DNA of 64,000 nt. It comes from Verrucomicrobiota bacterium (GTDB lineage: Bacteria > Verrucomicrobiota > Verrucomicrobiia > Limisphaerales > UBA8199). The stretch is taken from positions 14,300 to 78,299 of the forward strand of contig DAOPPX010000003.1 in NCBI GenBank assembly GCA_035358715.1, read 5' to 3'. Below, piece after piece: positions 15,320-33,459 of the stretch (position 1 is the stretch's first letter; the number at the start of each line of letters is the position of its first letter). A program made the position numbers and the translations under genes. Under the pieces are notes generated by a model. That model was given only the letters and a program-made list of their open reading frames with translations. It had not been told where the DNA came from and did no database searches.

Positions 15320-15396
15320 GCGCGAGTAGCTCAATTGGATAGAGCGTCGGCCTCCGGAGCCGAAGGTTGAGAGTTCGACCCTCTCCTCGCGTACCA
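15320..15396 (+). tRNA. tRNA-Arg(CCG)
   Basis: gcgcgag acceptor stem, D arm gctc/gagc, anticodon arm tcggc-ctCCGga-gccga, T arm gagag-ttcgacc-ctctc, encoded CCA. Confidence 0.97.
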
Positions 15397-15494
15397 GCCT
15401 GCGATTTGCGGTTTTCGTCGCAGAATCAATGGAAACCCGCTTATCCAGTCGGTTTCATCACGTCGCCGGAACTTGGATTGAACCACCCCCCAAA

Positions 15495-15525
15495 ACCAGA
15501 CCAAACCAGAACAGAAACCAGAACA
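15495..15525 (+). promoter_or_regulatory. Putative integrase arm-type sites (left end of element 1)
   Basis: ACCAGAACA at 15505 and 15517 (12-bp period) plus degenerate ACCAGACCA at 15495; same pair recurs at 22913/22925 and 33312/33324. Confidence 0.7.
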
Positions 15526-15915
15526 ATTCAAGGGGCTGAAAGGGGAATCGGTTCGAGACCCTCTGGCTTTGCGTTCCGTGTTGCGGCGGTAGAATCTCCC
15601 ACCCTACGGAGGAAGACACGCCCCAAACCCTCTGAGGCAGAAATCGGCCACCCTCAAATCGTGAACGTCGGAACGGGTGACGCTAAACTGTCCGGCCAAC
15701 ATACTCGAGCCAAACAGTTGGCCGAATGGATTAGCAATAGCGGTATTGTGATGCGGGGCTGCTAAGGGCGAAAACCCCAATTCTCGCAAGAATAAGTTTG
15801 GAACAAATCTTGCTTATATTACCGATTGGCAGTATTGCTGCCGAATGAACGAAAGGAATCACTGACGGAAAACTGAACGATAAGACAACAAAATTTGCGT
15901 AGCTTCGGCTGCGGG

Positions 15916-16027
15916 TCATCTGAAATCTGGACAATTTTAGGATACGGGACCGCGCCAAAGCCCAACGCCCAATCGGGCGTGGGCTTGGCGTTCCATCCCG
16001 TAGTGGCTCGTCCAGAGCCTCAGATGA
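15916..16027 (+). ncRNA. Candidate structured RNA, rod-like hairpin with six stacked helices
   Basis: tcatctga/tcagatga, tctggac/gtccaga, tacggga/tcccgta, gcgcc/ggcgt, aagccca/tgggctt, cgccc/gggcg, closed by an AATC loop. Strand not established. Confidence 0.55.
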
Positions 16028-16095
16028 GTGGGCGTTAGGTTCACGCCCCTTCCTTTTGCCGCTGTCTGGCTGCGTGAAAAACACCATAAGAAAAC

Positions 16096-16755
16096 ATGCA
16101 GACAAAATCATTACTCGGAGTTCTCACCATCACGGCGGCACTTGCGATGCAGGCTCACGCCCAAACCAATACTCTCATCGCTACTTTGACGATGCAGTTC
16201 ACAAGTGCGCAAAACTTGACAACTCCGGTTTTGCCGCTTGGGGGAAGTTACTTTTTTCTCGTGACCGGCCGTTACGGCGTTGGCCCCGGTGACAGAGGCG
16301 AGGCTATGTCCGATGCTGCTTACAACACAATTATTACGAGCACTCTTGACCAAACCCACAATCCCGGTCACCATTGGCAGTGGAACGGAACATACACGAA
16401 CCGCCCCAATCCCGACGCTTATCAAACCAACCATGTTTATCGCTTTGATTTCACAGGCCGAGGAGCGGCAGAGGTACTCGCGTTTACTGACCCGGTTTAC
16501 GGGGATAACGTTGGAACGCTCACCTTTCAGTTGTATCAATTAGGGCCATTGGTGAACTTAATTAAAGCTGTCAAACCGTCGTTCAGCAATCTCACTCTCA
16601 CCACAAATTACCAGTTGCAGGTTTCCGCCGACCTGAATACGTGGACCAACCAAGGCTCACCGTTCACCGCCACCAACACGAGCATGGTTTATCCGCAATA
16701 CTGGGACGTGGACAATTGGAACCAGCTTTTCTTCCGGCTCCAAGTGACTCCGTAA
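16096..16755 (+). CDS. Secreted protein with C-terminal verrucomicrobial-type domain
   Basis: Signal peptide (LLGVLTITAALAMQAHA); ends NYQLQVSADLNTW...LFFRLQVTP. Confidence 0.75.
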   Translation: MQTKSLLGVLTITAALAMQAHAQTNTLIATLTMQFTSAQNLTTPVLPLGGSYFFLVTGRYGVGPGDRGEAMSDAAYNTIITSTLDQTHNPGHHWQWNGTYTNRPNPDAYQTNHVYRFDFTGRGAAEVLAFTDPVYGDNVGTLTFQLYQLGPLVNLIKAVKPSFSNLTLTTNYQLQVSADLNTWTNQGSPFTATNTSMVYPQYWDVDNWNQLFFRLQVTP

Positions 16756-16785
16756 TTGTGGAACCCTGAACCGGAATTAGCTAAT

Positions 16786-16818
16786 CCCCATCCGCTTTCG
16801 TAGCCGGTGGGGTTTTTC
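16786..16818 (+). terminator. Rho-independent terminator (probable)
   Basis: GC-rich hairpin cccca...tgggg followed by ttttt, downstream of 16096-16755. Confidence 0.55.
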
Positions 16819-17014
16819 ATTTCCCGCATTCCTTCTCACCAAGCGCCCGTTGGCACTGGTCCCCATTTCCCACGATGCGTCCGGTTCTGTCTCTGGTGAT
16901 GTTTTCGGTTGCGTGGTAAATCGCCACGATGCGTCCGGTGCCGTCGCGGAGGGTGTTTCGGTCAACGCGGGCGATTATACGTCCCTCACGATTTCTCAGG
17001 AAATTATCGCTCAT
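16817..17014 (-). CDS. Small hypothetical protein with (R/L)DxxGRIV repeats
   Basis: 65 aa with three 'GRI(I/V)' repeats; follows the resolvase on the same strand. Confidence 0.55.
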   Translation of the reverse strand: MSDNFLRNREGRIIARVDRNTLRDGTGRIVAIYHATENITRDRTGRIVGNGDQCQRALGEKECGK

Positions 17015-17020
17015 AGGATT

Positions 17021-17692
17021 TCAAGCGGTTTGGGTTTTCAGGATGTTGCGGACGGTCGCCGGATACCATTGCCCGCCGTTGCGGGTGGCAATCCCCCGCC
17101 TGTTCAAGCAATCACAAATCCCCCGAAGGGTCTGAACGCCCGCCGACTTGATTTCCTGAATGATGGGAAACACCTTGGCGGCAAAGTCAGCCTTGGCGGT
17201 CTTGTTCGCCACGGCCATTGCGGCCACAGCCTTTTGGGGATTGGGTGTTCCCAATTGTTTGCCGGTGGCTTTGAGGGCGGCCAACGCTTTTGTCGTTCGT
17301 TCGCTAATCAGTTCACGCTCCCGTTGCGCCAGCAAAGCCAGAACCCCTATCGTAAAGCGGTCACACCCCGCAGCGTCGCACGCGATGAAATCCGCTCCGC
17401 TGTTTTGGAGGCGTAGCAAAAACTCAGCATTTCGCGCCAGCCTGTCCAGTTTAGCGATTACCACCGTGCCCTTGGATTTCTTGGCGTATTCCAGTGCCGC
17501 CGCCAGTTGGGGGCGTTCATCTGATGTTTTCTTGCCGGTTTCCACTTCGGAAAACTCCATAGCCAAGACCCCGCCTTGGCTTTCAACAAACCGCCGAACC
17601 GTCTCTTTCTGTGCCGCCATACCATTGCCGTCCAGCCCTTGCATTTTTGTGCTCACTCTGTAATAGCCGATGTAGATTTTCATTATGGACAA
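17021..17692 (-). CDS. Serine recombinase (resolvase/invertase family)
   Basis: YYRVST (catalytic Ser), ERPQLAAAL, VIAKLDRLAR, ERELISERT; C-terminal 'LNRRGIATRNGGQW' DNA-binding part. Confidence 0.93.
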   Translation of the reverse strand: MSIMKIYIGYYRVSTKMQGLDGNGMAAQKETVRRFVESQGGVLAMEFSEVETGKKTSDERPQLAAALEYAKKSKGTVVIAKLDRLARNAEFLLRLQNSGADFIACDAAGCDRFTIGVLALLAQRERELISERTTKALAALKATGKQLGTPNPQKAVAAMAVANKTAKADFAAKVFPIIQEIKSAGVQTLRGICDCLNRRGIATRNGGQWYPATVRNILKTQTA

Positions 17693-18072: not shown

Positions 18073-18999
18073 TTGGCCGGGTGGTTTTCCTTCCACGTCA
18101 CCGCAGCCACCTTGGAAGAGGTTGCCCCCCATTTCGCCACAACTACTGAAATCGTTTGGAAGGTTCCAACCAACCAAGTGCCGAAGCGGTTATGGATATA
18201 CGGGATAGGGCCTCACGTCTTTTCAGCAGCGACAATTTCAAACGCCGTCGTTCTGGCAGGGTTTCAACAGAAGGGATTTCCGAAGCCGTCAGCAAAGGCC
18301 ACGGTCATTTGGGATAGAATTGCTGGCAGCACCGTTGGTGAGCCGCGTCCCCCCTATTTTGCTCTTACGCCGAAACGTGGGGCGATTCAGTATGACATTG
18401 GGGACCGCTGGCCGGATGCGCCCAACGAAATCTTGGCGGACCGGGCCGCCGTTGAATACGCATGGGATTGTCTTGCTCGGCTCGGCATAGACCGAGCGCA
18501 GTTCGTGAAAACAAACATCGCCAGTTTCGGCGTTGCTTTCCCGCGCCAGATAGATGGAATCCGATTCCAAGATGATTCCGAAGGCTTTTCATTCCAGCAA
18601 TACGGCAAGGACCGAAAACTGCGTTGCTTTTGCCTGACGCTTCCAACACTCGAACGCGTGAAGGAGGACACGACTGCCAGCCCGCAGGAAATCATCGCCG
18701 CCATTCGGGCGTTCAAGGTTCCGATAATGCCAAACGGGGAAGAAGCCGACTACTTCGCCAGAGTCAAAGCTATGTCGAAAGCCAAGAGGCTCACGATTAC
18801 AAAACTGTCGCTCTACTACGGCGAAGGAACAATTGGAGAGACACCGCCTGAAAATGAACTGCCGAAGGCTGTAACGCCGGTTGCGTATTTGGAAACCACC
18901 GCCGACTTTGGCACCAGCAACGCACCCCTGACGCTCGCTGCCCCCATCCTTTCCTCTGACGTGAGGCGACTTCTCCAGACGAAACACGGGCGCAAGTGA
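18073..18999 (+). CDS. Hypothetical, probably secreted protein
   Basis: 308-aa ORF; in-frame upstream NPIRALTILLAGWFSFHVTA looks like a signal peptide; start codon uncertain (TTG used). Confidence 0.55.
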   Translation: MAGWFSFHVTAATLEEVAPHFATTTEIVWKVPTNQVPKRLWIYGIGPHVFSAATISNAVVLAGFQQKGFPKPSAKATVIWDRIAGSTVGEPRPPYFALTPKRGAIQYDIGDRWPDAPNEILADRAAVEYAWDCLARLGIDRAQFVKTNIASFGVAFPRQIDGIRFQDDSEGFSFQQYGKDRKLRCFCLTLPTLERVKEDTTASPQEIIAAIRAFKVPIMPNGEEADYFARVKAMSKAKRLTITKLSLYYGEGTIGETPPENELPKAVTPVAYLETTADFGTSNAPLTLAAPILSSDVRRLLQTKHGRK

Positions 19000-19103
19000 A
19001 TACGTATCCATTCCTCAGCGCCGGGATGGACCGGGTATTGCGAACGGGTGGGGGGTGGTCCGCAGGGAGCGCAAAGCGCTCATATCCAGAAGTTGCGCAA
19101 TTC

Positions 19104-19352
19104 TTAGTGGCGTTTTGTGAGTTGTCGGTTCTGTTTGTCCAACTCCCGTTTCCTGCGTTCTGCGGCTTGGTGCTTGCTCAGCACGGACCGCAACCGAGCC
19201 GCCTTCTCCTTGTAGCCGTCAATCTGGATATTCAGTCGGTCGGCTCGGCCATCGGCTTCGTTAAGGTAGGGAGCGAGCGTGGCTTCAAGTTGGGCGAGCA
19301 AAACCTCAAGGGCCGCGAGGATTTTGGTGGGCTGGTAGGCGTTATCGGTCAT
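19104..19352 (-). CDS. Small coiled-coil hypothetical protein
   Basis: 82 aa, helical and charged; overlaps upstream ORF by ATGA. Confidence 0.5.
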   Translation of the reverse strand: MTDNAYQPTKILAALEVLLAQLEATLAPYLNEADGRADRLNIQIDGYKEKAARLRSVLSKHQAAERRKRELDKQNRQLTKRH

Positions 19353-21227: not shown

Positions 21228-21257
21228 CCCTCCATTATGCCACCACAAAGGTAAACA
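21228..21257 (-). repeat. Right arm of 30-bp inverted repeat (promoter position of polymerase-like gene)
   Basis: ccctccattatgccaccacaaaggtaaaca; on the minus strand contains TGGCATAAT (extended -10-like) about 25-30 nt before the start codon. Confidence 0.88.
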
Positions 21258-21320: not shown

Positions 21321-21725
21321 TTACGCTGCGGCCTTCATCCCGTATTTGCCATCGGCCAACGCGAACACTGCCTTGGCTCCGGTGGACTTCTTCTTCAGTA
21401 CGTTCTTGATTTTCCACGACGTGAAGGCATCGCCGACTGCCGCAATGATTTCGTCAGCCGTCAGCGGCTTACCCTTGGCAGTGAGCACTTCGGCAATCTT
21501 GGTCTCAGCCTTTGGCTTCATCGGTTGCGGCTTCCACTCCGGGTCCAGTTGTCGGACCTCGGCGTCGAGGGCCACCAGTTCCGCCCTCATCTCCGCGTAT
21601 CGGTCTTTAAGGGGCTGGGCCAGAGCGACCCGCTGCTGGTTCAAGGCTTGGATTTTCGCGTTGATGTCGGCCAGTGCCGCTTGGGCGTTTTTGCTTCCAG
21701 TTCGGTCTACTGATATGTTTTTCAT
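21321..21725 (-). CDS. Coiled-coil + winged-helix DNA-binding protein (H-NS/Lsr2-like architecture)
   Basis: MKNISVDRTG... 134 aa: N-terminal heptad helix, Pro-rich linker, Lys-rich wHTH-like C-terminus; paralog at 31716-32126. Confidence 0.7.
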   Translation of the reverse strand: MKNISVDRTGSKNAQAALADINAKIQALNQQRVALAQPLKDRYAEMRAELVALDAEVRQLDPEWKPQPMKPKAETKIAEVLTAKGKPLTADEIIAAVGDAFTSWKIKNVLKKKSTGAKAVFALADGKYGMKAAA

Positions 21726-21793: not shown

Positions 21794-22906
21794 CTAAAAC
21801 GTGAGCCGGTTGGCCATCTTCCGCATATGCTCCCGGTTCAAGTGGCCGTAGGTTTTCCCGATGAGCACGCCGCCATCCTTGTGCCCGACCCACTTGGCGA
21901 TGGTCATATAGTCAATGCCCGTCATCACGCAGGTTGAGATGAAGTAGTGGCGGCACAAATGAAGGGTGAAATCCGGCAACCCCACAACCCGGCGAACCCC
22001 TTCAACCATTTTCTGAAACGACTGAACGGCGGTCTTTGTCCGGTGCGGTTTGCCCAAACGGTATGACGGGAAGAGATACGGAACCCCCTGAATCGCTTTG
22101 GCCTTCATACACAGCAGGTGGTTTTCCAAATTGCGGCTGAAGTCAACGCGACGGCTTTCAAAGTTCTTTGTCGTGTCCCCCTGAAACACCAATTGCCGGT
22201 TTTGCCAATCCACATTTTCCCATTTCAGATTCGCCACTTCGGATTTACGCCCACCTGTGAACATTAAAAGCAGGAGGAAGTCGGCAAACTGTTCCCCTGT
22301 AATGGGGTGGTTTCGCAGGGCTTCGGTTCCAATCCTGAGAAGGTCATCCGTCGAGAACAACCTTCGCTCTACGGACTTCACCTTTAACGGCGTGATACCG
22401 TCGAACGGCAGCTTCTGGATGTATCTTTCCGTTCTCGCCAGCTTCAACACCGCCCGAAGGGCTTTGACGTGATGATTGGCCGTAGTCGGCGACAACCCCC
22501 TTTCGAGCATCTTCCCGCGATAGGAGAGGATTTGACGCGACGTGATTTTGCTGATTTTCATGTCCGCCCCCAAAAACTTTTCCCAGTGCTTCAGGCAATT
22601 GTCTTCACGAATCGCCGACACCTTGGACCTGCCCGACACCTTCCGGTAATGCTCACGGAACGTTTTGAAATCCGGCGCTGAACGCGTGCTGGCGATTTCT
22701 CCGTCCTTGATTCCCTTCAACACGTCATACATCGCTTTGACGGCTTCCGTTCGGCTGGCTGCGCCGTTCAACCGGATGCGGTTGTTCCTTTTGATTCCGG
22801 TTTCAGGGTCAACCACCATCGCCTGAACGTAGAAGGAGCCGTTTCGCTGCCACAGCCCGCGGACCCTTCGGCGTGAACCGTCGAATACCTTTTGGAATGA
22901 CTTCAC
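21794..22906 (-). CDS. Tyrosine integrase (element 1)
   Basis: TGGRKSE (R), TTKN (K), HLCRH (HxxR), WVGHKDGG...KTYGH (H, Y); adjacent to att. Confidence 0.96.
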   Translation of the reverse strand: MKSFQKVFDGSRRRVRGLWQRNGSFYVQAMVVDPETGIKRNNRIRLNGAASRTEAVKAMYDVLKGIKDGEIASTRSAPDFKTFREHYRKVSGRSKVSAIREDNCLKHWEKFLGADMKISKITSRQILSYRGKMLERGLSPTTANHHVKALRAVLKLARTERYIQKLPFDGITPLKVKSVERRLFSTDDLLRIGTEALRNHPITGEQFADFLLLLMFTGGRKSEVANLKWENVDWQNRQLVFQGDTTKNFESRRVDFSRNLENHLLCMKAKAIQGVPYLFPSYRLGKPHRTKTAVQSFQKMVEGVRRVVGLPDFTLHLCRHYFISTCVMTGIDYMTIAKWVGHKDGGVLIGKTYGHLNREHMRKMANRLTF

Positions 22907-22912
22907 CCTTCA

Positions 22913-22933
22913 ACCAGAACAGGGACCAGAACA
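22913..22933 (+). promoter_or_regulatory. Putative integrase arm-type sites (right end of element 1)
   Basis: ACCAGAACA x2 with 12-bp period, immediately upstream of the integrase GTG. Confidence 0.7.
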
Positions 22934-23014: not shown

Positions 23015-23060
23015 CCTCCGGAGCCGAAGGTTGAGAGTTCGACCCTCTCCTCGCGTACCA
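23015..23060 (+). repeat. att duplication of tRNA-Arg 3' half (internal att)
   Basis: cctccggagccgaaggttgagagttcgaccctctcctcgcgtacca, identical to 15351-15396; no tRNA 5' half upstream. Confidence 0.95.
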
Positions 23061-23238: not shown

Positions 23239-25446
23239 ATGCACCTTGAAATGCGAACCGAAGCCAACGGAGACGTGCGCCGAATTTGGTATGGGCGGTT
23301 CATGGTCAATGGCAGGCGCGAGTGCGTGAACCTCGGCGTCAAGATGACGGGGACGCCCCCGGCGTCGGGGCGGCTGCGGGACCGCGGGGACGCGGCGTTC
23401 GAGCAGTCGCGGGGGGCGGCGGCGCTGCGGCTGAAACAGGTGGCAGCCGAGGCGCGAACCGTGCGGGACTCGGCGCGGCTGGTCGAGAGGTTATACGCTC
23501 TCAAGACGGGCAAAGAGGTGCGGGAGGTGAAGCTGTCGGAGCTGGAGACAGAGTGGGCCGGGCTGGCGCGCCGACGGGCGCTCGCGGACAAGTACGCGCG
23601 GGAAGGGCGGAAGACGTTGGGGCGGCTGGTGGCGTTCGTGCGGTCGCGCAATCGGCGAGCAACGGACCTGGCGCACGCGGACCCGGAGACCGTGGCCGCA
23701 TTCATGCAGGCCGAGAAGGATCGGGGGGTTAGCGGACGGACGTGGAACAAGAAGCTGAAGCTGCTGCGGTCGGCATTCAGACATTTGTTGCCGAGCGGCG
23801 CGCCTAATCCGTTCGACCGGCTGGTGACGCGGGAGGAGGCAATGGTGTTCCGGCAGCCGTTCACGGCGGCAGAATTGAGGGCCATCCTGGAAGCCGCGAA
23901 GGACGACGATTTTATCCGGCCAATCATTGTGACGGGCATGTGCACGGCCATGCGCCGGGGCGATTGCTGCCTGCTCAAGTGGAAGGACGTGGACTTGCGG
24001 GGCGGGTTCGTGACGGTCAAGACGGCGAAGACGGGCGGGACGGTGAGCATCCCGATTTTTGGCCGGCTGCGGGATGAACTCGCGAAGAGGGCGGAGAAGG
24101 CGGCTAAAAAGCTGAAAACTGGAAAGCTGAAGGCTGAAATCAGGGGGCCGGGGGTTGGTGAGGGAGCGGCTCGCTCGGAGAGCAAGGCCTATCACGGAGA
24201 GGGCTTCGTGTTCCCTGAGGCGGCAGCGATGTATCGTTCGAATCCTGACGGCATCACGCGGCGGGTGAAACAGGTGCTGTGGGCGGCCTTAGCGGGCGGG
24301 GGGGCTCCGGCGCGCAAAGGGGTGGAGGTGCCGGCCGAGGAGGTGCGGCGGCGTGGCGAGGCTTACCTGGCCGGGCTGCCCGCGGGAGAGCGCACGGAGC
24401 GCCTGGTGCGGGTGTTCGGCCTTTACATGGACGGGGGCAGCGTGGATCAGGTTGCCAAGGCCGCCGGCGTGAGCCAGAGTTCCGTTTCGGTTTATCTGAA
24501 TGAGATCGCGGCGGCGATCGGGTGCGGGGTGGTGCGGTGGCAGGCTGGCGCGGGCAGCGTGGCCAGGGCTCTGAAGGCGGACGATTCGGTGTTGCGCTCG
24601 GCGCGAGCGGGCGGGCTGAGGCGCGCCAGTGTGCGGGACTTCCACAGTCTGCGCGTGACCTGGGTGACGCTGGCTTTGTCGGCGGGTGTGCCGTTGGAAC
24701 TGGTGCAGCGGGTGCGCGCAGCGATCAGGCATTCCCGCTTCGGCAGCGACTCGGACACGTACAAAGACAAGTTTCTCAACTGGTGGATGGGGCTTGAGTT
24801 TTTGGCACACGTCAGCCAGGGCGAGAACATCGGACGAACAGTCGCAATCCATGCGAGCGATGCGTTGCTGCAACGATATCTTTATCGGCTGGTCAGCGAT
24901 CTGGTGAGGACGCTCAAGGGGCAGCAGATCACCTGGGACGCGGATTTTGCAACGGCATCGGGGGCGGCAACGCTGAATGACTTGGAATACCCTGCCGCGC
25001 TCAAGTTGCTGCAAACGCCAGCGGCGGCAACGAAGCTGGCCGCCAGTTTTGGGGACAATCCGGTCGCCGGCCTTCGGATTGCCCGCCTAGCGACGGCCCT
25101 TCAAGACCCCAAGAAAACGGCTGATCTTCTGGCTGCGCATCATCGGCATTTGCTGTGGCAGCTTAGCAGGCTGTACCGGATCCGATGCTGCATCGTCCAC
25201 GGCTCCCAGGTCCGGTTCAAACTGCCTTTATTCGCCGCGAATGTGGAATTCTACTTAAAGGAGCTCATAACCGTTTGCTTGCGGGCGCTCACATTGAATC
25301 CCCACGTTGCTTCGTTGCGGGAGGTCTTCCAGCGCGCGGCGTTCGCCCGTCAGCGAGTGGACGGCGAACTGCGGGCAACCCCGCCGAATCCGGACGCCAT
25401 CCGTAACGCCGTCTTCAACTCGGTCATAATCCAAGAGAATCCCTGA
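23239..25446 (+). pseudogene. In-frame chimera: truncated Tyr integrase (to ~24714) fused to HEPN-domain protein C-terminus
   Basis: MRRGD, VKTAKT, DFHSLRVTW, GVPLELVQRV, then an abrupt switch where the 'GH...Y' should follow. The C-terminus has NWWMGLEFL and the R-x4-H motif RCCIVH. ctttgttggc direct repeats (23126, 23138) upstream resemble arm sites. Confidence 0.75.
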
Positions 25447-25454: not shown

Positions 25455-26744
25455 ATGACCGATAAACCAAGATTGATTGAGGTCGCCTTTCCGCTGAAGC
25501 AGGCGTCGCTGACGAGCGTGCATGAGAAAAATGTGCGGCATGGGCACATCTCGACGCTGCACATCTGGCCAGCGCGACGGCCACTGGCGGCGTGCCGGGC
25601 GGCGCTGCTCTGCACGCTGTTGCCTGATCCGGGCGACGCGCAGAAGCGGCAGGAACTGCTCGACATGATTGGCGGGAAGGTGGTGAACCGCGTCGTCCCG
25701 TCGGAGGACGAAGAGGGCAACGCGGTTTCTGAGGAAAAGGAAACGGTAGAGGGTGGCGTCCTGGCGTGGGGCAATGAGAATGCAGCGGAGATGGATATCT
25801 TGCGCGCGGCCATCAAGGAGTTCTACGCCGGCAGCGCCCCTAAGGTGCTGGACCCGTTTGCGGGCGGCGGTGCTATTCCGTTGGAGGCGATGCGGCTGGG
25901 GTGCGAGGTTACGTCGGCAGACCTGAATCCGGTGGCGTGGTTCATCCAGAAATGCACGCTGGATTACCCGCAGCGATTCGCGGGAAAGAAATGGCCGCTG
26001 CCGGGGTTCGTGCGCGAGTGGCCGGATTTTGTGGAGGATTTCATCGCGGGCAAGATGAAGAAGCGGAAGGGCGAGCAGAAACCGCATTTCACGGATGCAA
26101 AGCAGATTCAACTATTGGCGCTAGAGGATGCGGACCTGGCGTGGCATGTGCGTGCCTGGGGGCGCTGGGTGTTGGAGCGAGCGCGACAGGACCTGGCGGC
26201 ACGCTACCCGATGGCGGACGGCGAACCGACCGTAGCTTACCTGTGGGCGCGCACCGCACGCGACCCGCAAACGACCGGACGGATCCCGCTACTCAAGACG
26301 TTTTGGCTTGGGAAGAAGAAGGGCAAGCGCGCCGCGTTGCTTCCCGTGCCGAAGGCCGACGGCTCGGGCGTGACTTTCAAGCTCCTGCGTGAAGCAGACC
26401 TGGCGCAACCACAACGTGTGGTAGAACAACATGAGTTCTTACAGCGGTGGGAGGTGACCGGAGAAACGCTGGAAGACTTTTTGAATGACGGGACGATGAA
26501 CCGCGCCGGCGTGTGGAGTCCTTGTGGTGGGCGCCCCGGGATCATTGCGCTTACCACGAAGGATGACCTGCCGCGCCAAGGCAACCAGCGTTTGCTGGGC
26601 ACGCAAATGGTCGCCGTTGTCGTAGAGCGGAAAGAGCCGAACCGGAAGAGGCCTACAAAGGTGTACAGGTTGCCCAACGAGCAGGAGATCTCGGCGGCAG
26701 TGGTGGCCGAGCAACCTGAAGACGGAACTGCCGCGCGTGATTGA
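25455..26744 (+). pseudogene. DUF1156 adenine DNA methyltransferase, C-terminally truncated
   Basis: RLIEVAFPL, TLHIWPARRPLAACRA, VLDPFAGGGAIPLEAMRLG, YLWART; ends before the catalytic DPPY-type region. Confidence 0.85.
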
Positions 26745-28704
26745 CGCGCAGAAGGCAGCGGCCGGGACGTTGAACGGGCGGGAGGTGGAGGCGGCGTGCG
26801 TGGCGGCATTCATCTACTCGCAACCGATCGGGGAGCAGGCGGAGGTAGGGGATTTGCGGTGGCTGGTGGGGCCGACGTGCGACCTGCCGGCGGTGTTCAA
26901 CAACGGGCTGATCGCCTGGGCGAACAGCTCGTGGTATTTGGAGGAAACGGACGCGACGGAGCCGACGACGAATGTTCCGAAGTATTGGCGGCTGGGACCG
27001 AAACCCAACCTCAACCAGGTCCACCACAGTTACAAGATCAAGGCCCTGAGCGTGGCCAGGAGCAAGTTCGATGAATTGGCGAAGAAATGCACCCCGCTCA
27101 AAGAGGGGTGTGACCAAGAGGGGATCAAGTTCCACAATCATCCGCCCTCGCCGGCGGACGTAGAGGATGACGGTCTGTTTCGGCTGGTGGTGCTGGGGGC
27201 GGATCATGCCGGACAGCCGGGGATGAAACCGTTGGCAAGCGCGGAAGCGTACTTGCGGACGCACTCGTCGCCGACGGACAACCGCACTTGTCAGAACGTG
27301 GTGCTCGTGGTGACGCCCAGCGTGGGCGGATTGCAGCAGGCGGAACAGCAAGTGGCCGAGTGGCTGGCGTGGCAAGAAATCAAGGGCTCGAAAGATTTCA
27401 AGGATTACGAAGCGCACGTAAAGGAGATGGTGAACAAGCGCGAGCGCTTGGCGAAGCAGGCGGCGGAAACGGCGGTGAAGAACGCCTTCGAGCTGGCGCT
27501 GCACGTAGACAAGACCGGGGCGGTACAGGTTAAGAAATTTACGATGGGGGCACAGGCGTTGTTCCCGACCCTGCTACAAGAAAAAGACCTTCGGCTGTTC
27601 AAGGAGAAGATTGACGCCGAGACGATCATGCCGGGCGGGCCGTACGCCGTTTGGCCAGCGACAGATGACCGCGTACAGGTGAGCGCGCTTTACCAACAAT
27701 TTGCCAGGCGGCCTAACTTGCCGAAGCTGTTAAGCCAACAGACCGTGACGAACACGATTGCCGATGCGGTGCAGCGCGGGGTGCTGGCATTGCGTCACGT
27801 GCGGCCGGACGGATCGGAGCAGTGGTTTTGGCGGTCGAAGATAGACGTGGCGGACTGGGAAAAGACGGGCGAGGCGTGTTTGCCGAAGAAAGCGGCGCTG
27901 AACAGCGTTAGCGCGAAAGCGGTGCTGCCGGAAGCGCTGCCAGGGTTATGGCCAGCGGAGCCGAATGGGGTGGAATTGGCGACGGTGTGCTCCTGGTTCG
28001 ACGGGGCGCATGCCTTTCAGGAGGTAACGCAACCGGGGTATCCGGCAGAGGCGCGCGCCATTCCGCAGGCGGCCGTGGCTGAGGTCCACAAGGCCGTGGC
28101 CCAGGCCGTTAAGACGGGGGACCTGTGGCTGGTGTTCGGCAATGACAGCGTGTGGCAGGAAGAGCCGACAGCCATTCAACTGGATGCGAAAGCGAAAGTG
28201 TTTCGGCGTCCGGCACCGCTGAGCGCCATCGAGTTGCTGCCGGGCGCGCTGAAGGATGCCTGGAGTACGGGGGCGGAGCCAAAGACGACGGTGGCGACGC
28301 TTTACGCCGAACTGAAAAAGGCGAGAGGCAATCCGTGGCCGCCAAAGGCATTTATCAGCACGCTGAGCGATGCGCTGGGGCGCGGACTGGTGCAGCGAGT
28401 TTCGGGCAGCGGTCCGCTCGTGTCGCTGGCCGCGGATGGGAAGGTGGAGCTGGCGGTCAAGGCGAGCGCGCCGGCGCCGGCACCCCAGCCTGGTGCCGCA
28501 CCTGGCCGCAGGATGTCGCCGCGAGTGACGCTGTCACCGGCGGAGTTCCAGAACCTGGCAGACGAGGTGGCGACGCTGAGCACGTCACTGGCTGGATGTG
28601 ACGTGCAACTTGAGGTGGCGGTGTCCATCAAGGCGAAGCCCGATACAAAGCTGGATGAGGCGAACAAGCTCCTGGAGAAGATCAAGGCGGGATGGAAGCT
28701 CTGA
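26701..28704 (+). pseudogene. DUF499 ATPase, C-terminal part only
   Basis: Frame opens at WWPSNLKTELPRV...; 'AAFIYSQP', 'SWYLE', 'WRLGPKPNLNQ', 'FRLVVLG' typical of DUF499 C-halves; no Walker motifs present. Confidence 0.7.
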
Positions 28705-28746
28705 AGAGCGGGCGATGAAACGGTCAGTTCATTCTCAGGAGGAAAC

Positions 28747-29169
28747 ATGAGCGATTCGGTCGCAATGGCACTGGACGCATTTGTGCGTTCGATCTCGATT
28801 AACCGGGACACGCCGCACAGTTTGTTGCTTGGGGCCGGCGCCTCGGTCAGCTCGGGGATACCTTCCGCCGAACGGTGCATTATGGAGTGGAAGGGCCGGA
28901 TGTTCACGACTGCCAACCCGGGATTGGAGAAGGAGGTGGGACACCTGTTCCTGCCGTCGGTGCAGCGGCGGATTCAGACATGGCTCGACAGGCAGGCGGG
29001 GTTTCCGGCGGCCGGCGCGGCAACGGAATACAGTTTTTACTGCGAACGTTGCTACCCGCTGGCAGATGATCGCCGAGCCTATTTCCAGAGCCTGGTGAAG
29101 GCGGGGAAACCGGGCTATGGCTATCGGCTGCTGGCGTTGCTGGCTGAGGCCGGTGTTTTCGACTCGGTC
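28747..29169 (+). pseudogene. SIR2-like (SIR2_2) NADase domain, truncated
   Basis: LLLGAGASVSSGIPSA, YSFYCERCYP..DDRRAYF, PGYGYRLLALLAEAGVFDSV; breaks just before the expected WTTNFD motif. Confidence 0.85.
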
Positions 29170-30545
29170 TCATCCCGCACAAGCGGACTGGTGGTGGCGG
29201 CAGCAATCAGTTTGCCTCCGTTGAAATTGTACCCAAAGGGTTGTGTGGGGACGATGGTTGACGCAATGGCGATATGGTTCAGTTTACCGTCTTCCTTCTG
29301 TTCCTTGGTCCACCCGATGAAATCATCACGAGGCCCCAACGCAGGGAAGTCTCCGCTGATGGCCCCGATGCCTAGCACCGGCTTTTCTGGTTGGCTGGCG
29401 TCAACCACGAAAAACTTTATGTATCGTCCGGGTGTCTGATAGTTGACCGCAGAGGAAATAAAGTGCCGATAGACGCTCCACAGCAGATGACCCGCCTTGT
29501 CTTTGACAATGAGAATCTCAGGAGAAAGCCGTTCGATGGCCGCGATTGTATCCTGCTCGTTTTCCAAGTCAGCCGGTGCCCAAACGTTGCTTTCCGCCGC
29601 CACAATTAAATCGGGGTCGGCAACTTTGGTATCCACCAATTGATAATACTTTTGAGCAAACGTATAGTCTCTGACCGAAAGGGATTTCAGCTCAGTGAGG
29701 TTTTCAACGAGCGCCTGTGTCTCCAGCGCGATGTCCATCGTGGGTTTGTTTTGTGCGTGATGGGCAACGCACTCCTCGCACCAGTCAAGACGACCTGAGT
29801 ATTCGGGCATATCAGGGTAGATTGACAGAAAGACATCGTCCGGTCCTTTGACACGGCCACAACGAACGCAGGCGAGTTGCATGGGGTCCAAGCCGAAATA
29901 GCTCAACACGTCATTCAACGCATACTGCCACTTGTCCAATAGAATTGGCAGGGGCGCGAGGCCCGTGTCGAAGCAATCAAAGAGGGCGTTTTCCAACTCG
30001 GGCGATGCCTTCGCAAGGCTCCTGTATAGGCTCTGGGAGCCAGCAAAATTGTTTCTTAGTTTCTTGAGGATGGTTTCCGTGGTGTCGCCTTCCACGGGTT
30101 CACTTTGCTTTGTGGTGGGCTTCTCGTCGGGGTTCTTGTCTAGGTGCCCGGCCTTAAGGGAACCCGTGACGATGTATGCCTGCCGGAGGCTTGTGGCCTC
30201 ATTCAAATTCTTCACATGTTCAGATTTTGCGAGCTTCATGTAGCGTTCAGCGGTGGTGTCAGATATGGCCTCACAGTTCTGTTTCAGCCACTTCAACCAG
30301 TTGCCGTGGCCGACCGCATCTTTGGCGTGGTTAAGGTATTGGCCGGCTTTGATGGCGGCAGCGATTGCCTCCCGCCCCTGTTTCTTTGATAGTCGGTCGG
30401 CCAGCTTAACGGCTTGATGAGCGTCCAAAATGGCCTTGGCGTATTCCTCCAAGGTTTTGGGGGGGGCAATGGTAACGGTGGACGGTGTGGTGGGTTCGGC
30501 CACCGGTGCAAATGCGGTATCGTTGGTTATTGTGTTCAGTGTCAT
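29170..30545 (-). CDS. DUF3102 + Zn-finger + DUF4338 (DruA-like) fusion, C-terminally truncated
   Basis: AGQYLNHAKDAVGHGNWLKWL...TAERYMKLA (DUF3102); CVRC...CEEC; TPGRYIKFFVVD, GPRDDFIGW, KLNHIAIASTIVPTQPFGYNFNGGKL (DUF4338). ORF track extends to 29121 across the junction. Confidence 0.75.
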
Positions 30546-30729
30546 ATATGGTAGTGAGTTTTGGTTTTAGTTTTTTCCCTCATTGTATCGGCTCTCCCAA
30601 GAGGACGGGTGTGCCAGCGCCGCATTTCGCAAATGGCCTAATTTCAGTGGATTCATAAGGGTGAGGCTTAGCGGAGAATGATTACCTTTCCGGTGGTTGG
30701 CAGGGGGCACATCGGATAAACTGCGCTGG

Positions 30730-31701
30730 ATGAATGCGTTCGGAAAGCCCTACGACCTGCCCTATGACGATTGGGACCAAGAGAAGGTGGGGCCGGGTTT
30801 TTACCGCTTGCTCGCAGAGCACCCCGTTTTCAATCGCGAGAAAAAGGCCATCAGCGCCGCCCATTCGTGGCTGAACGAAATTGCCGCCGGCCAACACGCT
30901 AACGAAGGCAGAAACGTGACGGTCGGCTACAAGACCATTCAGGACCACTTCCGAAAGTTTTCCCAATCGCACGCCGCCTTCATTCGAGCTCTCAGTCAGT
31001 ATCGTCTGGTCGACATCAGCAAAGTCGAGAGAAGGACCCGCTCGTTCGCACTGACGGAAGCCGGATGGCGACTCTTACAAGAGGGAAACTATCGTTGGCT
31101 TCATTTGCTGCTAACGGACCCAAAAACGCGCAGGCGGAATCAGGTGGCAATCGCCAGACGAAAGCTGAGGCGCACCACCTACGCCGACCCGACACGGCGA
31201 GCGATTGAGGAATTCCGGCACAACGTGACGTTCGACCGAGCCGGACTCCTTAAACAGTTGCGGGTGGACAACTCACGGGTAGGGAGGACCGCCGATATGC
31301 GGCGCAATTTCGTTATCCACCCGCTGCTCGCCTTCGCGACACGCAAGTTTTGTGAACTAAAAGAAAGGCGTGGCGCCATCTACCATGAGTGGTTTTCCCT
31401 CCCTTGGCACTTCCGGCGCTTCGCTTCGTTCAAGGGGAGGCAATACATCATGCCCTTGGAATGTCCGAAAGAGCAGTTGTGCCAGTTCTGCCCAGCCCTA
31501 TGCGCCTACGGAGAGAGCTTGGGGTTGGCGCTCGTTTACGATTACGAAAGCGTGAGCGTGTTTGGTGACATGAACGACTCGAAATTGCTGAACAAGTTAA
31601 GGCGGGTCAAAGCGTTTATTCGGCACCAAACCTGCGAAACCAGCGCCCAAGCCAAGAACCATGACTGCTTGGAGAACCCCGGCGAATTGCCGGGGTCGTG
31701 A
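30730..31701 (+). CDS. Degenerate paralog of the polymerase-like protein (palm largely deleted)
   Basis: Shares WLxxLLxDPxTRRRNQVAIxxRK, GxIYHE and KLxxVKAFI with 19863-21206. Motif A TLD becomes PLE, motif C YDG becomes YES, and the region between them is mostly missing. Confidence 0.75.
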   Translation: MNAFGKPYDLPYDDWDQEKVGPGFYRLLAEHPVFNREKKAISAAHSWLNEIAAGQHANEGRNVTVGYKTIQDHFRKFSQSHAAFIRALSQYRLVDISKVERRTRSFALTEAGWRLLQEGNYRWLHLLLTDPKTRRRNQVAIARRKLRRTTYADPTRRAIEEFRHNVTFDRAGLLKQLRVDNSRVGRTADMRRNFVIHPLLAFATRKFCELKERRGAIYHEWFSLPWHFRRFASFKGRQYIMPLECPKEQLCQFCPALCAYGESLGLALVYDYESVSVFGDMNDSKLLNKLRRVKAFIRHQTCETSAQAKNHDCLENPGELPGS

Positions 31702-31715
31702 CTGTCAGACGGTGA

Positions 31716-32126
31716 TTACGCCACCGCCCGAACGACGTATTTGCCATCGGCGAAGGTAAACACCGCCTTGGCCCCCTGTGACCGCTTCTTCAGGGTGTTC
31801 TTCACCTTCCAGGGGGTGAAGGCATCGCCCACGGCGGCGATGATAGCGTCAACGTCCATCGGTTGCCGGTTCGCGCTGAGGATTTCCGTAATCCGGGTTT
31901 CGGCCTTGGGCTTCATCGGCTCCGGCTTCCAAGTGGGGTCCAGTTCGGCGATTTGGGATGCCATCTGAACCACCTCGGCCCGCAGTTCAGCGTAGCGAAC
32001 CTTGAGGGGTTCAGCCAAGGTGACCCGCTGCTTCGTCAGCGCCTCAATTTGGGCGTTGATTTCAGCGAGCGCGGATTGAGCGTTCTTGTTTCCGGTTCCA
32101 GTTCGATTTTGTGATGTAGGTTTCAT
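31716..32126 (-). CDS. Coiled-coil + winged-helix DNA-binding protein (copy 2)
   Basis: Closely similar to 21321-21725 (KNAQ.ALA.INA.I.AL..QRV.LA.PLK.RYAE.RAE; WKP.PMKPKAET). Confidence 0.72.
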   Translation of the reverse strand: MKPTSQNRTGTGNKNAQSALAEINAQIEALTKQRVTLAEPLKVRYAELRAEVVQMASQIAELDPTWKPEPMKPKAETRITEILSANRQPMDVDAIIAAVGDAFTPWKVKNTLKKRSQGAKAVFTFADGKYVVRAVA

Positions 32127-32192
32127 TGTGCTCCTGGGCTACTTCAGAAAAGCGACACCGGCAAGCGATGGGCGCGCGAGATTTCGCTGCGG

Positions 32193-33305
32193 CTAAAACG
32201 TGAGCTTACTTGCCATCTTCTGCATGTGCTCGCGGTTCAAATGCCCGTAGGTTTTACCAATCAGCACACCGCCGTCCTTGTGGCCAACCCACTTGGCGAT
32301 TGTCATGTAGTCAATGCCCGCCATCACGCAGGTTGAGATGAAATAGTGACGGGTTAGGTGAAGGGTGAAGTCCGGTAAGCCCACGGCACGGCGAACGGAT
32401 TCGACCATTTTCTGGAAGGACTGAACGGCAATGCGTGTTCGATGGGGTTTTCCCAAGCGATAAGACGGGAACAGATAGGCCACCCCTTGAAGGGCTTTGG
32501 CCTTCATGCACAGCAGGTGGTTTTCGAGGTTGCGGCTGAAGTCAACACGACGGCTCTCAAAGTTTTTTGTCGTGTCCCCTTGGAACACGAGTTGCCTATT
32601 TTGCCAGTCAACGTTTTCCCATTTCAGATTCGCCACTTCTGATTTGCGCCCACCCGAATACATGCACAGCAGCAGAAAATCTGCGAACTGCTCGCCGGTT
32701 ATTGGGTGGTTCCGCAGAGCATCGGTCCCAATTTTCAGAAGGTCCTCAGTACAGAACAACTTCCGCTCCACGGATTTGACCTTGAGGGGCGTGATGCCAT
32801 CGAACGGCAGCTTCTGAATGTATTTTTCCGTTCTCGCCAACTTCAGCACCGCCCGCAAAGCCTTGACGTGATGATTGGCCGTGCTCGCCGACAGCCCCCG
32901 TGCGAGCATTTGGCCGCGATACGCGAGAATCTGCCGCGGATTGATTTTGCTGATTCGCATGTTGGCTCCCAGAAACTTTTCCCAGTGCTTCAGGCAATTG
33001 TCCTCACGAATCGCCGACACCTTGGACCTGCCCGACACCTTCCGGTAATGCTCGCGGAACGTTTTGAAATCCGGCGCTGACCGCGTGCTGGCGATTTCTC
33101 CGTCCTTGATTCCTTTCAGCACACCATACATGGCCTTGATGGCCTCCGTTTGGCTGGTTGCCCCAGTCAGCCGGATGCGGTTGTTCTTTTTGATTCCGGT
33201 TTCAGCGTCAACCACCATCGCCTGAACGTAGAAGGAGCCGTTCCGCTGCCACAACCCGCGTATTCGTCGGCCTGAGCGGTCGAATACCTTTCGGAAGGAA
33301 TTCAC
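32193..33305 (-). CDS. Tyrosine integrase (element 3)
   Basis: 370 aa, same length as and closely similar to 21794-22906; catalytic R, K, HxxR, H, Y all present. Confidence 0.96.
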   Translation of the reverse strand: MNSFRKVFDRSGRRIRGLWQRNGSFYVQAMVVDAETGIKKNNRIRLTGATSQTEAIKAMYGVLKGIKDGEIASTRSAPDFKTFREHYRKVSGRSKVSAIREDNCLKHWEKFLGANMRISKINPRQILAYRGQMLARGLSASTANHHVKALRAVLKLARTEKYIQKLPFDGITPLKVKSVERKLFCTEDLLKIGTDALRNHPITGEQFADFLLLCMYSGGRKSEVANLKWENVDWQNRQLVFQGDTTKNFESRRVDFSRNLENHLLCMKAKALQGVAYLFPSYRLGKPHRTRIAVQSFQKMVESVRRAVGLPDFTLHLTRHYFISTCVMAGIDYMTIAKWVGHKDGGVLIGKTYGHLNREHMQKMASKLTF

Positions 33306-33311
33306 CGTCCA

Positions 33312-33332
33312 ACCAGAACAAGGACCAGAACA
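33312..33332 (+). promoter_or_regulatory. Putative integrase arm-type sites (element 3)
   Basis: ACCAGAACA x2 with 12-bp period upstream of the integrase start. Confidence 0.7.
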
Positions 33333-33413
33333 ACAGGCGAGCGTCAGGAAGGAAAGACGGGGATGCTATTGGCCGGGAATACTTTGTGGCAGATTGGTTT
33401 TATCGTCGGGCCT

Positions 33414-33459
33414 CCTCCGGAGCCGAAGGTTGTGGGTTCGACCCCCGCCTCGCGTACCA
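33414..33459 (+). repeat. Outer att duplication of tRNA-Arg 3' half
   Basis: cctccggagccgaaggttgtgggttcgacccccgcctcgcgtacca; 42/46 identical to the other copies, all differences in the T-stem. Confidence 0.93.

What the first reader, a model, noticed from the sequence alone, without database searches (positions are those of the whole stretch)
15351..33459. A family of small tRNA-Arg(CCG) elements with a shared integrase - coiled-coil/wHTH - polymerase-like core, stacked in tandem
Seen: elements 1 and 3 share a 370-aa integrase, ACCAGAACA arm pairs, near-identical attP-side flanks (ggatgct.ttggccgggaatac.ttgtggca.attggttttatcgtcgggcctc), the coiled-coil/wHTH gene and the polymerase-like gene, but carry different cargo. 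An unrelated integrase (element 2) uses the same site. Inference: this is a conserved three-gene backbone defining a satellite-like or IME family at a hotspot tRNA.
Basis: partly seen in the sequence, partly recalled or inferred. Interest (0 to 1): 0.7.

Follow-up and report, generated by a model that had tools for sequence, protein, structure and literature searches.

The report
Polymerase-carrying mobile islands stacked at tRNA-Arg
Three small mobile DNA islands (one intact, two decayed) sit one after another at a single tRNA-Arg gene, and two belong to a rare verrucomicrobial family that carries its own miniature DNA-polymerase-I-like enzyme, of a kind predicted in 2008 but never studied.

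Summary
The last 46 nt of tRNA-Arg(CCG) occur three times (15351, 23015, 33414). They bound an intact 7,664-bp element, E1, and a 10.4-kb composite. The composite is a decayed defence island (E2, dead integrase) fused by deletion to the right-hand remnant of an E1-like element (E3).

E1 and E3 share:
- a 370-aa tyrosine integrase (89% identical);
- paired ACCAGAACA arm sites;
- a coiled-coil/winged-helix protein (63% identical);
- a polymerase-like gene (38% identical).

The polymerase-like protein folds confidently (pLDDT 93) as an exonuclease-less family-A polymerase with an N-terminal winged-helix domain. Its invariant residues and gene neighbourhood fit the TV-Pol branch described by Iyer et al. 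2008.

Eleven related loci correct the "three-gene backbone". The constant core is small protein, polymerase, small serine resolvase and a 65-aa protein, plus a 29-nt motif upstream of polymerase and resolvase. The integrase is exchangeable: two tyrosine types or large serine recombinases.

E3 belongs to a conserved sub-lineage with a fingerless, inverted polymerase paired with DruA/DUF3102. A congener has the empty site. Another carries an E2-type island at the same tRNA.

No satellite or conjugation hallmark was found. This is a new member of a predicted but uncharacterised kind.

The parts
15320..15396 (+). tRNA-Arg(CCG). Its 3' 46 nt (15351-15396) form att copy 1 (attL of E1).
   Evidence: ARAGORN; Rfam; repeat family D4
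15505..15525 (+). Pair of ACCAGAACA arm-type sites, tRNA-proximal arm of E1
   Evidence: The same pair lies about 115 nt from tRNA-Arg in the independent locus L029.
16096..16755 (+). 219-aa cargo protein with a signal-peptide-like N-terminus. No family match.
   Evidence: Matches (phmmer E 6e-33) a LamG-family ORF in L007; which part aligns was not examined.
16817..17014 (-). 65-aa conserved core gene immediately downstream of the resolvase (three GRIV-like repeats)
   Evidence: phmmer hits next to the resolvase in L004, L006, L025, L027, L029, L030 and L045; no Pfam match
17021..17692 (-). Small serine recombinase (resolvase/invertase type, 223 aa); conserved core gene
   Evidence: PF00239 E 1.6e-25; present with the polymerase in all related loci that extend far enough
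18073..18999 (+). 308-aa cargo ORF, no homologue in related elements
19104..19352 (-). 82-aa coiled-coil ORF, conserved upstream of the resolvase in some relatives
   Evidence: phmmer hits in L030, L045 and L046
19792..19821 (+). Second copy of the family motif TGTTTACCTnTnnGGTGGCATAATGGAGG. In E1 it is inverted, so it forms a 29/30 inverted repeat with 21228-21257 around the polymerase gene.
   Evidence: only these two copies in the 5.5-Mb genome
19863..21206 (-). 447-aa polymerase: N-terminal winged-helix domain plus family-A (TV-Pol-like) thumb, palm and fingers; no exonuclease domain
   Evidence: AF2 pLDDT 93.4. Foldseek hits Taq, T7, apicoplast and DpoZ polymerases, and 'putative DNA pol I', 403 aa, at E 5e-10. 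R220, D248, K321, E383 and D408 are invariant in 49 homologues.
21228..21257 (-). Family motif upstream of the polymerase, same orientation as the gene
21321..21725 (-). 134-aa small core protein: 50-residue helix plus C-terminal winged helix
   Evidence: AF2 pLDDT 85; Foldseek hits winged-helix domains; conserved in 9 elements
21794..22906 (-). E1 tyrosine integrase, 370 aa, intact
   Evidence: PF00589, PF13102 and PF24624; phrog_1 E 3e-49
22913..22933 (+). ACCAGAACA pair, integrase-proximal arm of E1
23015..23060 (+). att copy 2 (attR of E1, attL of E2)
23239..25446 (+). E2 integrase, dead. Residues 1-492 are 95% identical to an intact 568-aa integrase of a congener. From nt 24714 an unrelated 243-aa tail replaces the last 76 residues, which normally carry the catalytic Tyr.
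25455..29200 (+). Collapsed defence cargo of E2: HmaB methylase fragment (25455-26744), HmaC ATPase fragment (26737-28704), and SIR2 N-terminus of a short-pAgo system (28747 to about 29200)
   Evidence: PADLOC; Pfam DUF1156; G+C 0.60-0.66 for windows within the segment versus about 0.54-0.58 in E1 and E3
29121..30545 (-). DUF3102-DruA(DUF4338)-like ORF of E3, cut at its 3' end by the E2/E3 deletion joint (about 29165-29210)
   Evidence: DruA and DUF3102 genes flank short polymerases in L045 and L046
30697..31701 (+). E3 'fingerless' polymerase homologue (334 aa). It is inverted relative to the small protein and integrase, and a degenerate motif lies at 30679-30697.
31716..32126 (-). E3 small coiled-coil/wHTH protein (136 aa)
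32193..33305 (-). E3 tyrosine integrase (370 aa, open frame)
33312..33332 (+). ACCAGAACA pair, integrase-proximal arm of E3
33414..33459 (+). att copy 3: the native, displaced tRNA 3' half
   Evidence: Same T-stem and the same CTTC flank as the empty-site tRNA of congener G599

Best explanation
The region is a tandem array of three integrative elements at the anticodon-loop site of tRNA-Arg(CCG).

E1 (15397-23060, 7,664 bp) is intact. E2 (23061 to about 29.2 kb) is a decayed defence island whose integrase has lost its C-terminus. E3 (about 29.2 kb to 33459) is the integrase-proximal remnant of an E1-like element. One deletion removed E2's right end, the att site between E2 and E3, and E3's left half.

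E1 and E3 belong to a rare family of compact verrucomicrobial elements. The conserved core is a dimeric-looking coiled-coil/winged-helix protein, a roughly 450-aa TV-Pol-type family-A polymerase with its own N-terminal winged-helix domain, a small serine resolvase and a 65-aa protein. A 29-34-nt cis motif precedes the polymerase and resolvase genes. This core is combined with interchangeable integration modules.

Shown: the ends, the arm sites, the gene homologies, the fold, the co-occurrence, the empty site, and reuse of the site by another island.

Inferred mechanism: the lambda-type integrase binds core and arm sites and excises the element as a circle. The TV-Pol then primes and/or copies that circle, probably starting at or regulated through the conserved motif. 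The motif would be read either by the polymerase's N-terminal domain or by the small winged-helix protein. The resolvase would resolve multimers of the replicating circle. Cargo consists of defence, anti-defence and secreted-protein genes. The route of cell-to-cell transfer is unknown.
For: Ends and arm sites.

Empty site in G599, an E2-type island alone at the same tRNA in G601, and att copy 3 as the native half.

Fold and catalytic residues of the polymerase.

Small protein fold.

Co-occurrence of small protein, polymerase, resolvase and the 65-aa gene with three integrase types.

Motif conserved with 4 or fewer mismatches in 29 nt in all but one copy, across elements whose polymerases are only 52-60% identical, and absent elsewhere in the genome.

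Precedent: TV-Pols with an N-terminal domain lie next to resolvase and integrase genes and were proposed to replicate mobile elements (PMC2579912). The one TV-Pol member tested, CcPol-MP of SCCmec, is a primase (PMC10061031).

E1 was seen in the same arrangement on the six places returned (19 contigs carry the gene), from several samples.
Against: No helicase, SSB or other replication gene accompanies the polymerase, unlike CcPol-MP-Cch2.

No homologue was found on any plasmid or phage record by tblastn.

No direct sequence link to a named TV-Pol was obtained. The profile did not hit phage Ma-LMM01 or any PDB chain.

The motif could simply be a host-type extended -10 promoter (TGGCATAAT) with an operator.

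In E1 the second motif copy points into the 3' end of the polymerase gene, which a simple shared-promoter role does not explain.
Confidence: 0.6

Rival explanations
1. The small protein, polymerase and resolvase form a self-contained replicative cassette (a TV-Pol 'replicative transposon' in the sense of Iyer et al.). It moves between islands by resolvase-mediated recombination at the conserved motif. The integrases would then belong to the host islands rather than to the cassette.
For: The same core occurs with three unrelated integration modules. Motif copies bracket the polymerase as direct repeats in most loci and as inverted repeats in E1. The polymerase segment is inverted in E3, L030 and L045. 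In L004 the second motif copy breaks off exactly after GGTGGC. Brucella TV-Pol/resolvase elements flanked by repeats are reported in PMC2579912.
Against: The core always sits directly next to the integrase, in the same order. The motif shows only weak dyad symmetry (7 of 11 by eye), unlike typical serine-recombinase sites. The six assemblies examined show E1 in one orientation only. No cassette was seen without an integrase on a sufficiently long contig.
Confidence: 0.15
2. The roughly 450-aa enzyme is a promoter-specific single-subunit RNA polymerase or sequence-specific primase, and the 29-nt motif is its cognate promoter or start site. It would drive its own gene and the resolvase operon.
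For: The motif resembles a T7-type promoter in layout: a conserved specificity block, then AT-rich ATAAT, then a conserved GGAGG followed by a purine-rich, nearly C-free stretch of about 20 nt. It is conserved over its whole length, not only at -10/-35 positions, and is confined to the element. Motif C reads (Y/H)-D-G without a second acidic residue, as in T7 RNAP's H-D-S (the comparison is from my own knowledge).
Against: A bulky H/W/Y sits five residues after the motif-A Asp, where DNA polymerases place the steric-gate Glu and T7 RNAP a Gly (the alignment was made by eye). The closest fold matches are DNA polymerases. The protein is half the size of any known single-subunit RNAP. TGGCATAAT is also a good host extended -10 element.
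Confidence: 0.1
3. One reading: a phage satellite (PICI/P4-like) or an integrative mobilisable element that depends on a helper phage or conjugative element.
For: Small size, tRNA site, tandem stacking and defence or anti-defence cargo such as AcrVA2-like and Mom-like genes in relatives. The transfer route is unexplained.
Against: Pfam, PHROGs and NCBIfam find no capsid-redirecting, packaging, AlpA-type, primase-helicase, relaxase or coupling-protein gene in E1. The precomputed Pfam annotations of the called genes in the related loci show none either.
Confidence: 0.1
4. The polymerase-like protein is a defence or anti-defence effector rather than a replicase, and the islands are passive defence islands.
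For: The islands carry defence fragments (Hma, SIR2/pAgo, DruA-like). A catalytically impossible fingerless form is maintained in several lineages.
Against: No PADLOC match for the polymerase, small protein or resolvase beyond one weak chance-level hit. The polymerase is the constant core next to recombinases, not variable cargo.
Confidence: 0.05

Closest known systems
TV-Pol elements (Iyer, Abhiman and Aravind 2008, PMC2579912): the subset with an N-terminal helical domain linked to a gamma-delta resolvase, a lambda-type integrase or a transposase
   Same: A minimal family-A polymerase without nuclease domains. Invariant beta-hairpin Arg, two catalytic Asp and a fingers Lys. An extra N-terminal domain. 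Neighbouring resolvase and integrase genes. Location in integration hotspots. Verrucomicrobia are named among the source phyla.
   Different: No direct sequence link to a named TV-Pol could be made here. The paper does not describe the coiled-coil/wHTH partner, the 65-aa gene, the 29-nt motif, tRNA att and arm sites, integrase swapping or the fingerless sub-lineage.
CcPol-MP primase of SCCmec and the PolA-SSB primases of Bacillota islands (PMC7581432, PMC10061031)
   Same: A truncated family-A polymerase paired with a small partner protein on integrative islands. The islands use site-specific recombinases, stack in tandem at one site and carry defence cargo.
   Different: The partner here is a coiled-coil plus winged helix, not an OB-fold SSB. 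It lies upstream, not downstream, of the polymerase. No Cch/Rep helicase is present. The N-terminal domain is a wHTH rather than an exonuclease remnant. The host phylum differs.
Pipolins (piPolB-encoding integrative elements; PMC11551731)
   Same: In concept: small integrative elements at tRNA genes with tyrosine recombinases, their own primer-independent polymerase and exchangeable defence cargo.
   Different: The polymerase there is family B, here family A. There is no homology between the cores.
P4-like and PICI phage satellites
   Same: A tRNA-adjacent integrase, small size and tandem occupancy of hotspots.
   Different: None of the defining regulatory, primase-helicase or capsid/packaging-hijack genes is present.

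Membership tests
TV-Pol polymerases (Iyer et al. 2008) | Family-A-type thumb/palm/fingers catalytic core | tested here: met
   AF2 pLDDT 93.4. The 26 best PDB matches are family-A DNA polymerases (prob up to 1.0, E from 5e-3). The best BFVD hit is 'putative DNA polymerase I', E 5e-10, TM 0.55/0.61.
TV-Pol polymerases (Iyer et al. 2008) | Absolutely conserved Arg in the beta-hairpin and two metal-binding Asp in the palm | tested here: met
   R220, D248 and D408 are invariant in 49 homologues of 22-59% identity.
TV-Pol polymerases (Iyer et al. 2008) | Fingers RxxxK motif | tested here: inconclusive
   K321 is invariant. R317 is present in E1, but position 317 is K or R in only 19 of 49 sequences.
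TV-Pol polymerases (Iyer et al. 2008) | No nuclease domain; optional N-terminal globular domain; neighbourhood with resolvase, integrase or transposase | tested here: met
   447 aa with an N-terminal helical/winged domain spanning residues 22-137. Resolvase and integrase are adjacent in the related loci that extend far enough.
TV-Pol polymerases (Iyer et al. 2008) | Detectable sequence relationship to named TV-Pol members | tested here: inconclusive
   The profile of 49 sequences found nothing in phage Ma-LMM01, which is named in the paper, nor in PDB chains. No Pfam, PHROG or NCBIfam model matches. Other named members were not available.
PolA-SSB (CcPol-MP) primases | Small OB-fold ssDNA-binding partner encoded next to the polymerase | tested here: not met
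   The partner is a 50-residue helix plus a winged helix. There was only a weak PHROG SSB hit, E 0.006.
PolA-SSB (CcPol-MP) primases | Helicase (Cch/Rep) in the same operon | tested here: not met
   No helicase domain in E1, nor in the precomputed Pfam annotations of the related elements.
Phage satellites (P4-like, PICI, cfPICI, PLE) | Capsid- or packaging-hijack genes, an AlpA/Stl-type regulator and a primase-helicase replicase | tested here: not met
   No such Pfam, PHROG or NCBIfam match in any E1 or E3 ORF. SatelliteFinder itself was not available.
Integrative mobilisable/conjugative elements | Relaxase, coupling protein or T4SS genes; oriT | tested here: not met
   No relaxase or T4SS domains. 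oriT cannot be recognised with these tools.
Lambda-type tRNA-integrating islands | Tyrosine integrase, direct repeats of the tRNA 3' part, arm-type sites on both arms, and an empty site in relatives | tested here: met

The most novel reading that the evidence does not exclude
The 450-aa TV-Pol is a sequence-specific initiator polymerase. It would be either the smallest single-subunit promoter-dependent RNA polymerase or a site-specific primase. It would recognise the conserved 29-nt motif through its own winged-helix domain and start at the GGAGG that follows the ATAAT. The family would then be a self-contained orthogonal transcription or priming system, with the fingerless paralogues acting as motif-binding regulators.
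Probability: 0.12. Interest if true: 0.85.

Novelty: new member of a known kind. Interest (0 to 1): 0.45.

Why it matters
TV-Pol polymerases linked to resolvases and integrases were predicted in 2008 to replicate a class of mobile elements. Only the distant SCCmec CcPol-MP has ever been tested.

E1 is a very small (7.7 kb), apparently intact example. It has mapped ends and arm sites, a documented empty site, four or five core genes and a sharply conserved cis motif. That makes the open question directly testable: what such a minimal family-A polymerase does, and on which DNA.

The exchangeable integrase and the conserved fingerless-polymerase lineage also show how replication modules are shuffled and inactivated among defence-carrying islands in an under-studied phylum.

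Tried and rejected
1. A degenerate fourth att site at 18066 (GATACTCTTGGCCGGG): the alignment shows only a 16-nt chance match.

2. A fourth att at the E2/E3 boundary: none exists. The joint lies inside a SIR2 fragment and a DruA fragment.

3. The E1 308-aa ORF as a homologue of the 301-aa gene following the polymerase in L004: no similarity.

4. Inversion of a whole segment (17806-19827) to explain the reversed second motif: weakened, because the 82-aa ORF between motif and resolvase keeps the family orientation.

5. The E3 short polymerase as a one-off pseudogene: rejected. The same deletion boundaries recur in several diverged proteins and in a complete element.

6. Polymerase homologues on plasmids or phages: none by tblastn.

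7. A link to the TV-Pol of phage Ma-LMM01: no hit.

8. Rfam families in the region: only the tRNA.

9. The wide profile could not seed search for related loci.

11. The ATG inside the motif as a start codon: in frame with the polymerase only in L007 (by eye), so rejected.


Full report
**Anatomy**

The window holds one tRNA gene, tRNA-Arg(CCG), at 15320-15396 (Rfam). Its last 46 nt begin one base before the anticodon loop. They recur at 23015-23060 (46/46) and at 33414-33459 (42/46, with compensatory T-stem changes). ACCAGAACA occurs six times in 64 kb against 0.22 expected. The six form three tandem pairs: 108 nt after the tRNA (15505/15517), and 6 nt upstream of each 370-aa integrase start (22913/22925 and 33312/33324). 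The roughly 80 nt between each integrase-side pair and the core repeat are near-identical in the two copies. This stretch also resembles the 5' part of the tRNA itself.

**The three elements**

E1 (15397-23060, 7,664 bp) carries these genes:
- a 219-aa secreted-looking protein;
- a 65-aa ORF;
- a 223-aa serine resolvase (PF00239, E 1.6e-25);
- a 308-aa orphan ORF;
- small ORFs;
- the 447-aa polymerase-like gene;
- a 134-aa protein;
- a 370-aa tyrosine integrase.

The next segment, 23061 to about 29.2 kb, has a different composition: G+C 0.60-0.66 with strong GC skew, against 0.52-0.58 in E1 and E3. Its integrase is 95% identical over residues 1-492 to an intact 568-aa integrase in a same-genus genome. 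At nt 24714 it is replaced by an unrelated tail, losing the C-terminal 76 residues that normally carry the catalytic Tyr. Its cargo consists of fragments: HmaB residues 6-309 against a 973-position model, HmaC model positions 478-769 of 941, and the first roughly 150 residues of a SIR2 domain of a short-pAgo system.

No att copy separates this segment from the last one. The SIR2 fragment abuts a 3'-truncated DUF3102-DruA-like ORF on the other strand at about 29165-29210. So there are three elements but only three att copies. One deletion removed E2's right end, the middle att and E3's left half.

E3 retains the DruA-like ORF, a 334-aa polymerase homologue, a 136-aa small protein and an open 370-aa integrase. 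Identities to E1 are 89% (integrase), 63% (small protein) and 38% over two blocks (polymerase).

**Hotspot and polarity**

Three same-genus genomes were compared.
- G599 has the empty site: left flank, tRNA, the four bases CTTC, then sequence matching window 41220 onward.
- att copy 3 has the G599 T-stem and the same CTTC, so it is the displaced native 3' half.
- G601 has an E2-type island (92% identical to 22994-24714) directly after the tRNA, with no E1.
- G602 has a tRNA with the E1-type T-stem and no island.

**The polymerase-like protein**

No Pfam, PHROG, NCBIfam or PADLOC model matches it. It has 184 cluster representatives at 50% identity in 1.84 billion proteins. All 42 hits in the 5.8-billion set carry no Pfam domain, and where a source names them they are "hypothetical protein".

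AlphaFold2 with 49 homologues gives pLDDT 93.4 and pTM 0.87. In the PDB the 26 best Foldseek matches are all family-A DNA polymerases, including Taq, T7, the apicoplast polymerase and DpoZ. In BFVD the best is a 403-aa "putative DNA polymerase I" (E 5e-10, TM 0.55/0.61).

R220, D248 (D-I-R-A-C-H-P), K321 (KxxLNxxxNG), E383 and D408 (Y-E-Y-D-G) are invariant across the 49 sequences. Residues 22-137 form a helical/winged-helix domain ahead of the thumb. There is no exonuclease domain.

This is the signature that Iyer et al. 2008 gave for TV-Pols: a beta-hairpin Arg, two palm Asp, a fingers Lys and no nuclease. They noted a subset with an N-terminal helical domain that sits next to gamma-delta resolvases, lambda-type integrases or transposases in integration hotspots. 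They proposed these as novel replicative mobile elements and listed verrucomicrobia among the sources (PMC2579912). The only TV-Pol relative tested, CcPol of SCCmec, is a primase when paired with the OB-fold protein MP (PMC10061031).

I could not make a direct sequence link to a named TV-Pol. Membership therefore rests on fold, motifs, architecture and neighbourhood.

**The small protein**

AlphaFold2 (pLDDT 85) gives one 50-residue helix followed by a winged helix. Foldseek finds generic winged-helix domains. It is not an OB-fold SSB, so this is not a PolA-SSB pair.

**The family**

Related loci came from metagenomes and MAGs labelled Verrucomicrobiota. In those that extend far enough, the small protein, polymerase and resolvase occur together and in the same order. 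A homologue of the 65-aa ORF follows the resolvase in seven of them.

The integrase varies:
- the 370-aa type at tRNA-Arg(CCG) in E1, E3, L004/L005 and L029. L029 shows the tRNA-proximal ACCAGAACA pair;
- a 412-aa tyrosine integrase between duplicated tRNA-Leu(GAG) genes about 10.3 kb apart in L007 and L009;
- large serine recombinases in L008/L026, L025, L027, L030 and L045.

The constant backbone is therefore the replication/resolution core, and the integration module is swapped.

The family is rare. Hits at E <= 1e-5 were found in 8 of 201 sampled genomes of the order, four of them strong, and in 3 of 401 across the phylum. The pattern scan of one genome per species returned only three loci, but that scan depends on two peptide patterns. 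No satellite or conjugation hallmark was found in any of the loci.

**A conserved cis motif**

TGTTTACCTTTACGGTGGCATAATGGAGG, followed by a purine-rich stretch, lies upstream of the polymerase. It lies again upstream of the resolvase or its small leader genes, in the same orientation as those genes. All but one copy have 4 or fewer mismatches in 29 nt, in elements whose polymerases are only 52-60% identical. The exception is the second copy in L004, which breaks off after GGTGGC.

In E1 the second copy is reversed. This gives the 29/30 inverted repeat 19792-19821/21228-21257 around the polymerase gene. These are the only two copies in the 5.5-Mb genome.

The motif contains a good extended -10 element (TGGCATAAT). 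However, it is conserved over its full length. It may be a regulated promoter, an initiation site for the polymerase, or a recombination site. I could not discriminate between these.

**E3 is not just a wreck**

Its 334-aa polymerase homologue lacks the entire fingers and the central palm. Both catalytic Asp positions are changed. The same deletion boundaries recur in several diverged proteins: P0046, P0053, P0056, P0074, P0188 and P0189.

L045 is a complete element of this type. Its order is large serine recombinase, small protein, short polymerase on the opposite strand, DruA, DUF3102, an 82-aa-like gene, resolvase and a 65-aa-like gene. L046 has the same core where its short contig allows.

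So the "fingerless" polymerase, divergent from a DruA/DUF3102 gene, defines a maintained sub-lineage. The DruA-like ORF of E3 is a lineage partner rather than arbitrary cargo. L030 shows the inverted arrangement with what appears to be a full-length polymerase, read in two frames on a contig where other genes are also split.

**Mechanism and verdict**

Shown: integration at the anticodon-loop site with arm-type sites; tandem stacking; decay of two of the three elements; a conserved polymerase/resolvase core; and an exchangeable integrase.

Inferred: excision to a circle, TV-Pol-dependent priming or replication at or under control of the motif, and multimer resolution by the resolvase. These steps follow Iyer's proposal and are conceptually parallel to pipolins and SCC elements.

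E1 appears in the same arrangement on the six places returned, out of 19 contigs from several samples that carry the gene.

The finding is real and well delimited. Its interpretation needs correcting on two points: the core composition, and the lack of any evidence for a satellite or IME. The class was predicted in 2008. I rate it a new member of a known but uncharacterised kind, of moderate interest.

Noticed in passing
window 33464-41219: The 2,540-aa secreted protease/Ig-repeat gene directly right of the array is absent from the congener with the empty site. There, the tRNA plus CTTC is followed by sequence matching window 41220 onward. No att copy bounds this 7.7-kb difference.
   Followed up: partly
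window 19792-19821 and 21228-21257: In E1 alone the second family motif is reversed. This gives a 29/30 inverted repeat around the polymerase gene, and the second copy points into the gene's 3' end. It could drive an antisense transcript or mark an invertible segment. The six assemblies examined show one orientation only.
   Followed up: partly
L045 5329-13152; L046; window 29121-31701: A conserved sub-lineage of elements has a polymerase lacking the whole fingers subdomain. The gene is transcribed divergently from DruA (DUF4338) and DUF3102 genes. The association of an inactivated TV-Pol with a Druantia-type DruA domain is unexplained.
   Followed up: partly
window 16817-17014 (-): A 65-aa ORF with three GRI(I/V)-containing repeats is conserved immediately after the resolvase in seven related loci. 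It has no Pfam match.
   Followed up: partly
L041 (G601:C50) 2966-11087: The intact E2-type integrase in a congener is followed by PqqD, methyltransferase, B12-binding radical SAM and kinase-like genes. This looks like a RiPP-type cluster carried as island cargo at the same tRNA-Arg.
   Followed up: no
L028 550-610 and 3514-3574: A distant polymerase homologue (28% identity) sits next to a Mu-type portal gene. A 61-nt, 98%-identical direct repeat lies just upstream of the polymerase and again 3 kb downstream. So repeated leader elements also accompany remote family members.
   Followed up: no
L004 6011-7210; L007 9126-9929: Cargo of related elements includes an AcrVA2-like protein and a Mom-like protein, which suggests anti-defence cargo alongside defence genes.
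   Followed up: no
window 22994-23014 and 33393-33413: The element-side flank left of the 46-nt core resembles the D-arm/anticodon-stem part of the tRNA. attP therefore carries a roughly 70-nt tRNA-like stretch, not only the exact 46 nt.
   Followed up: partly
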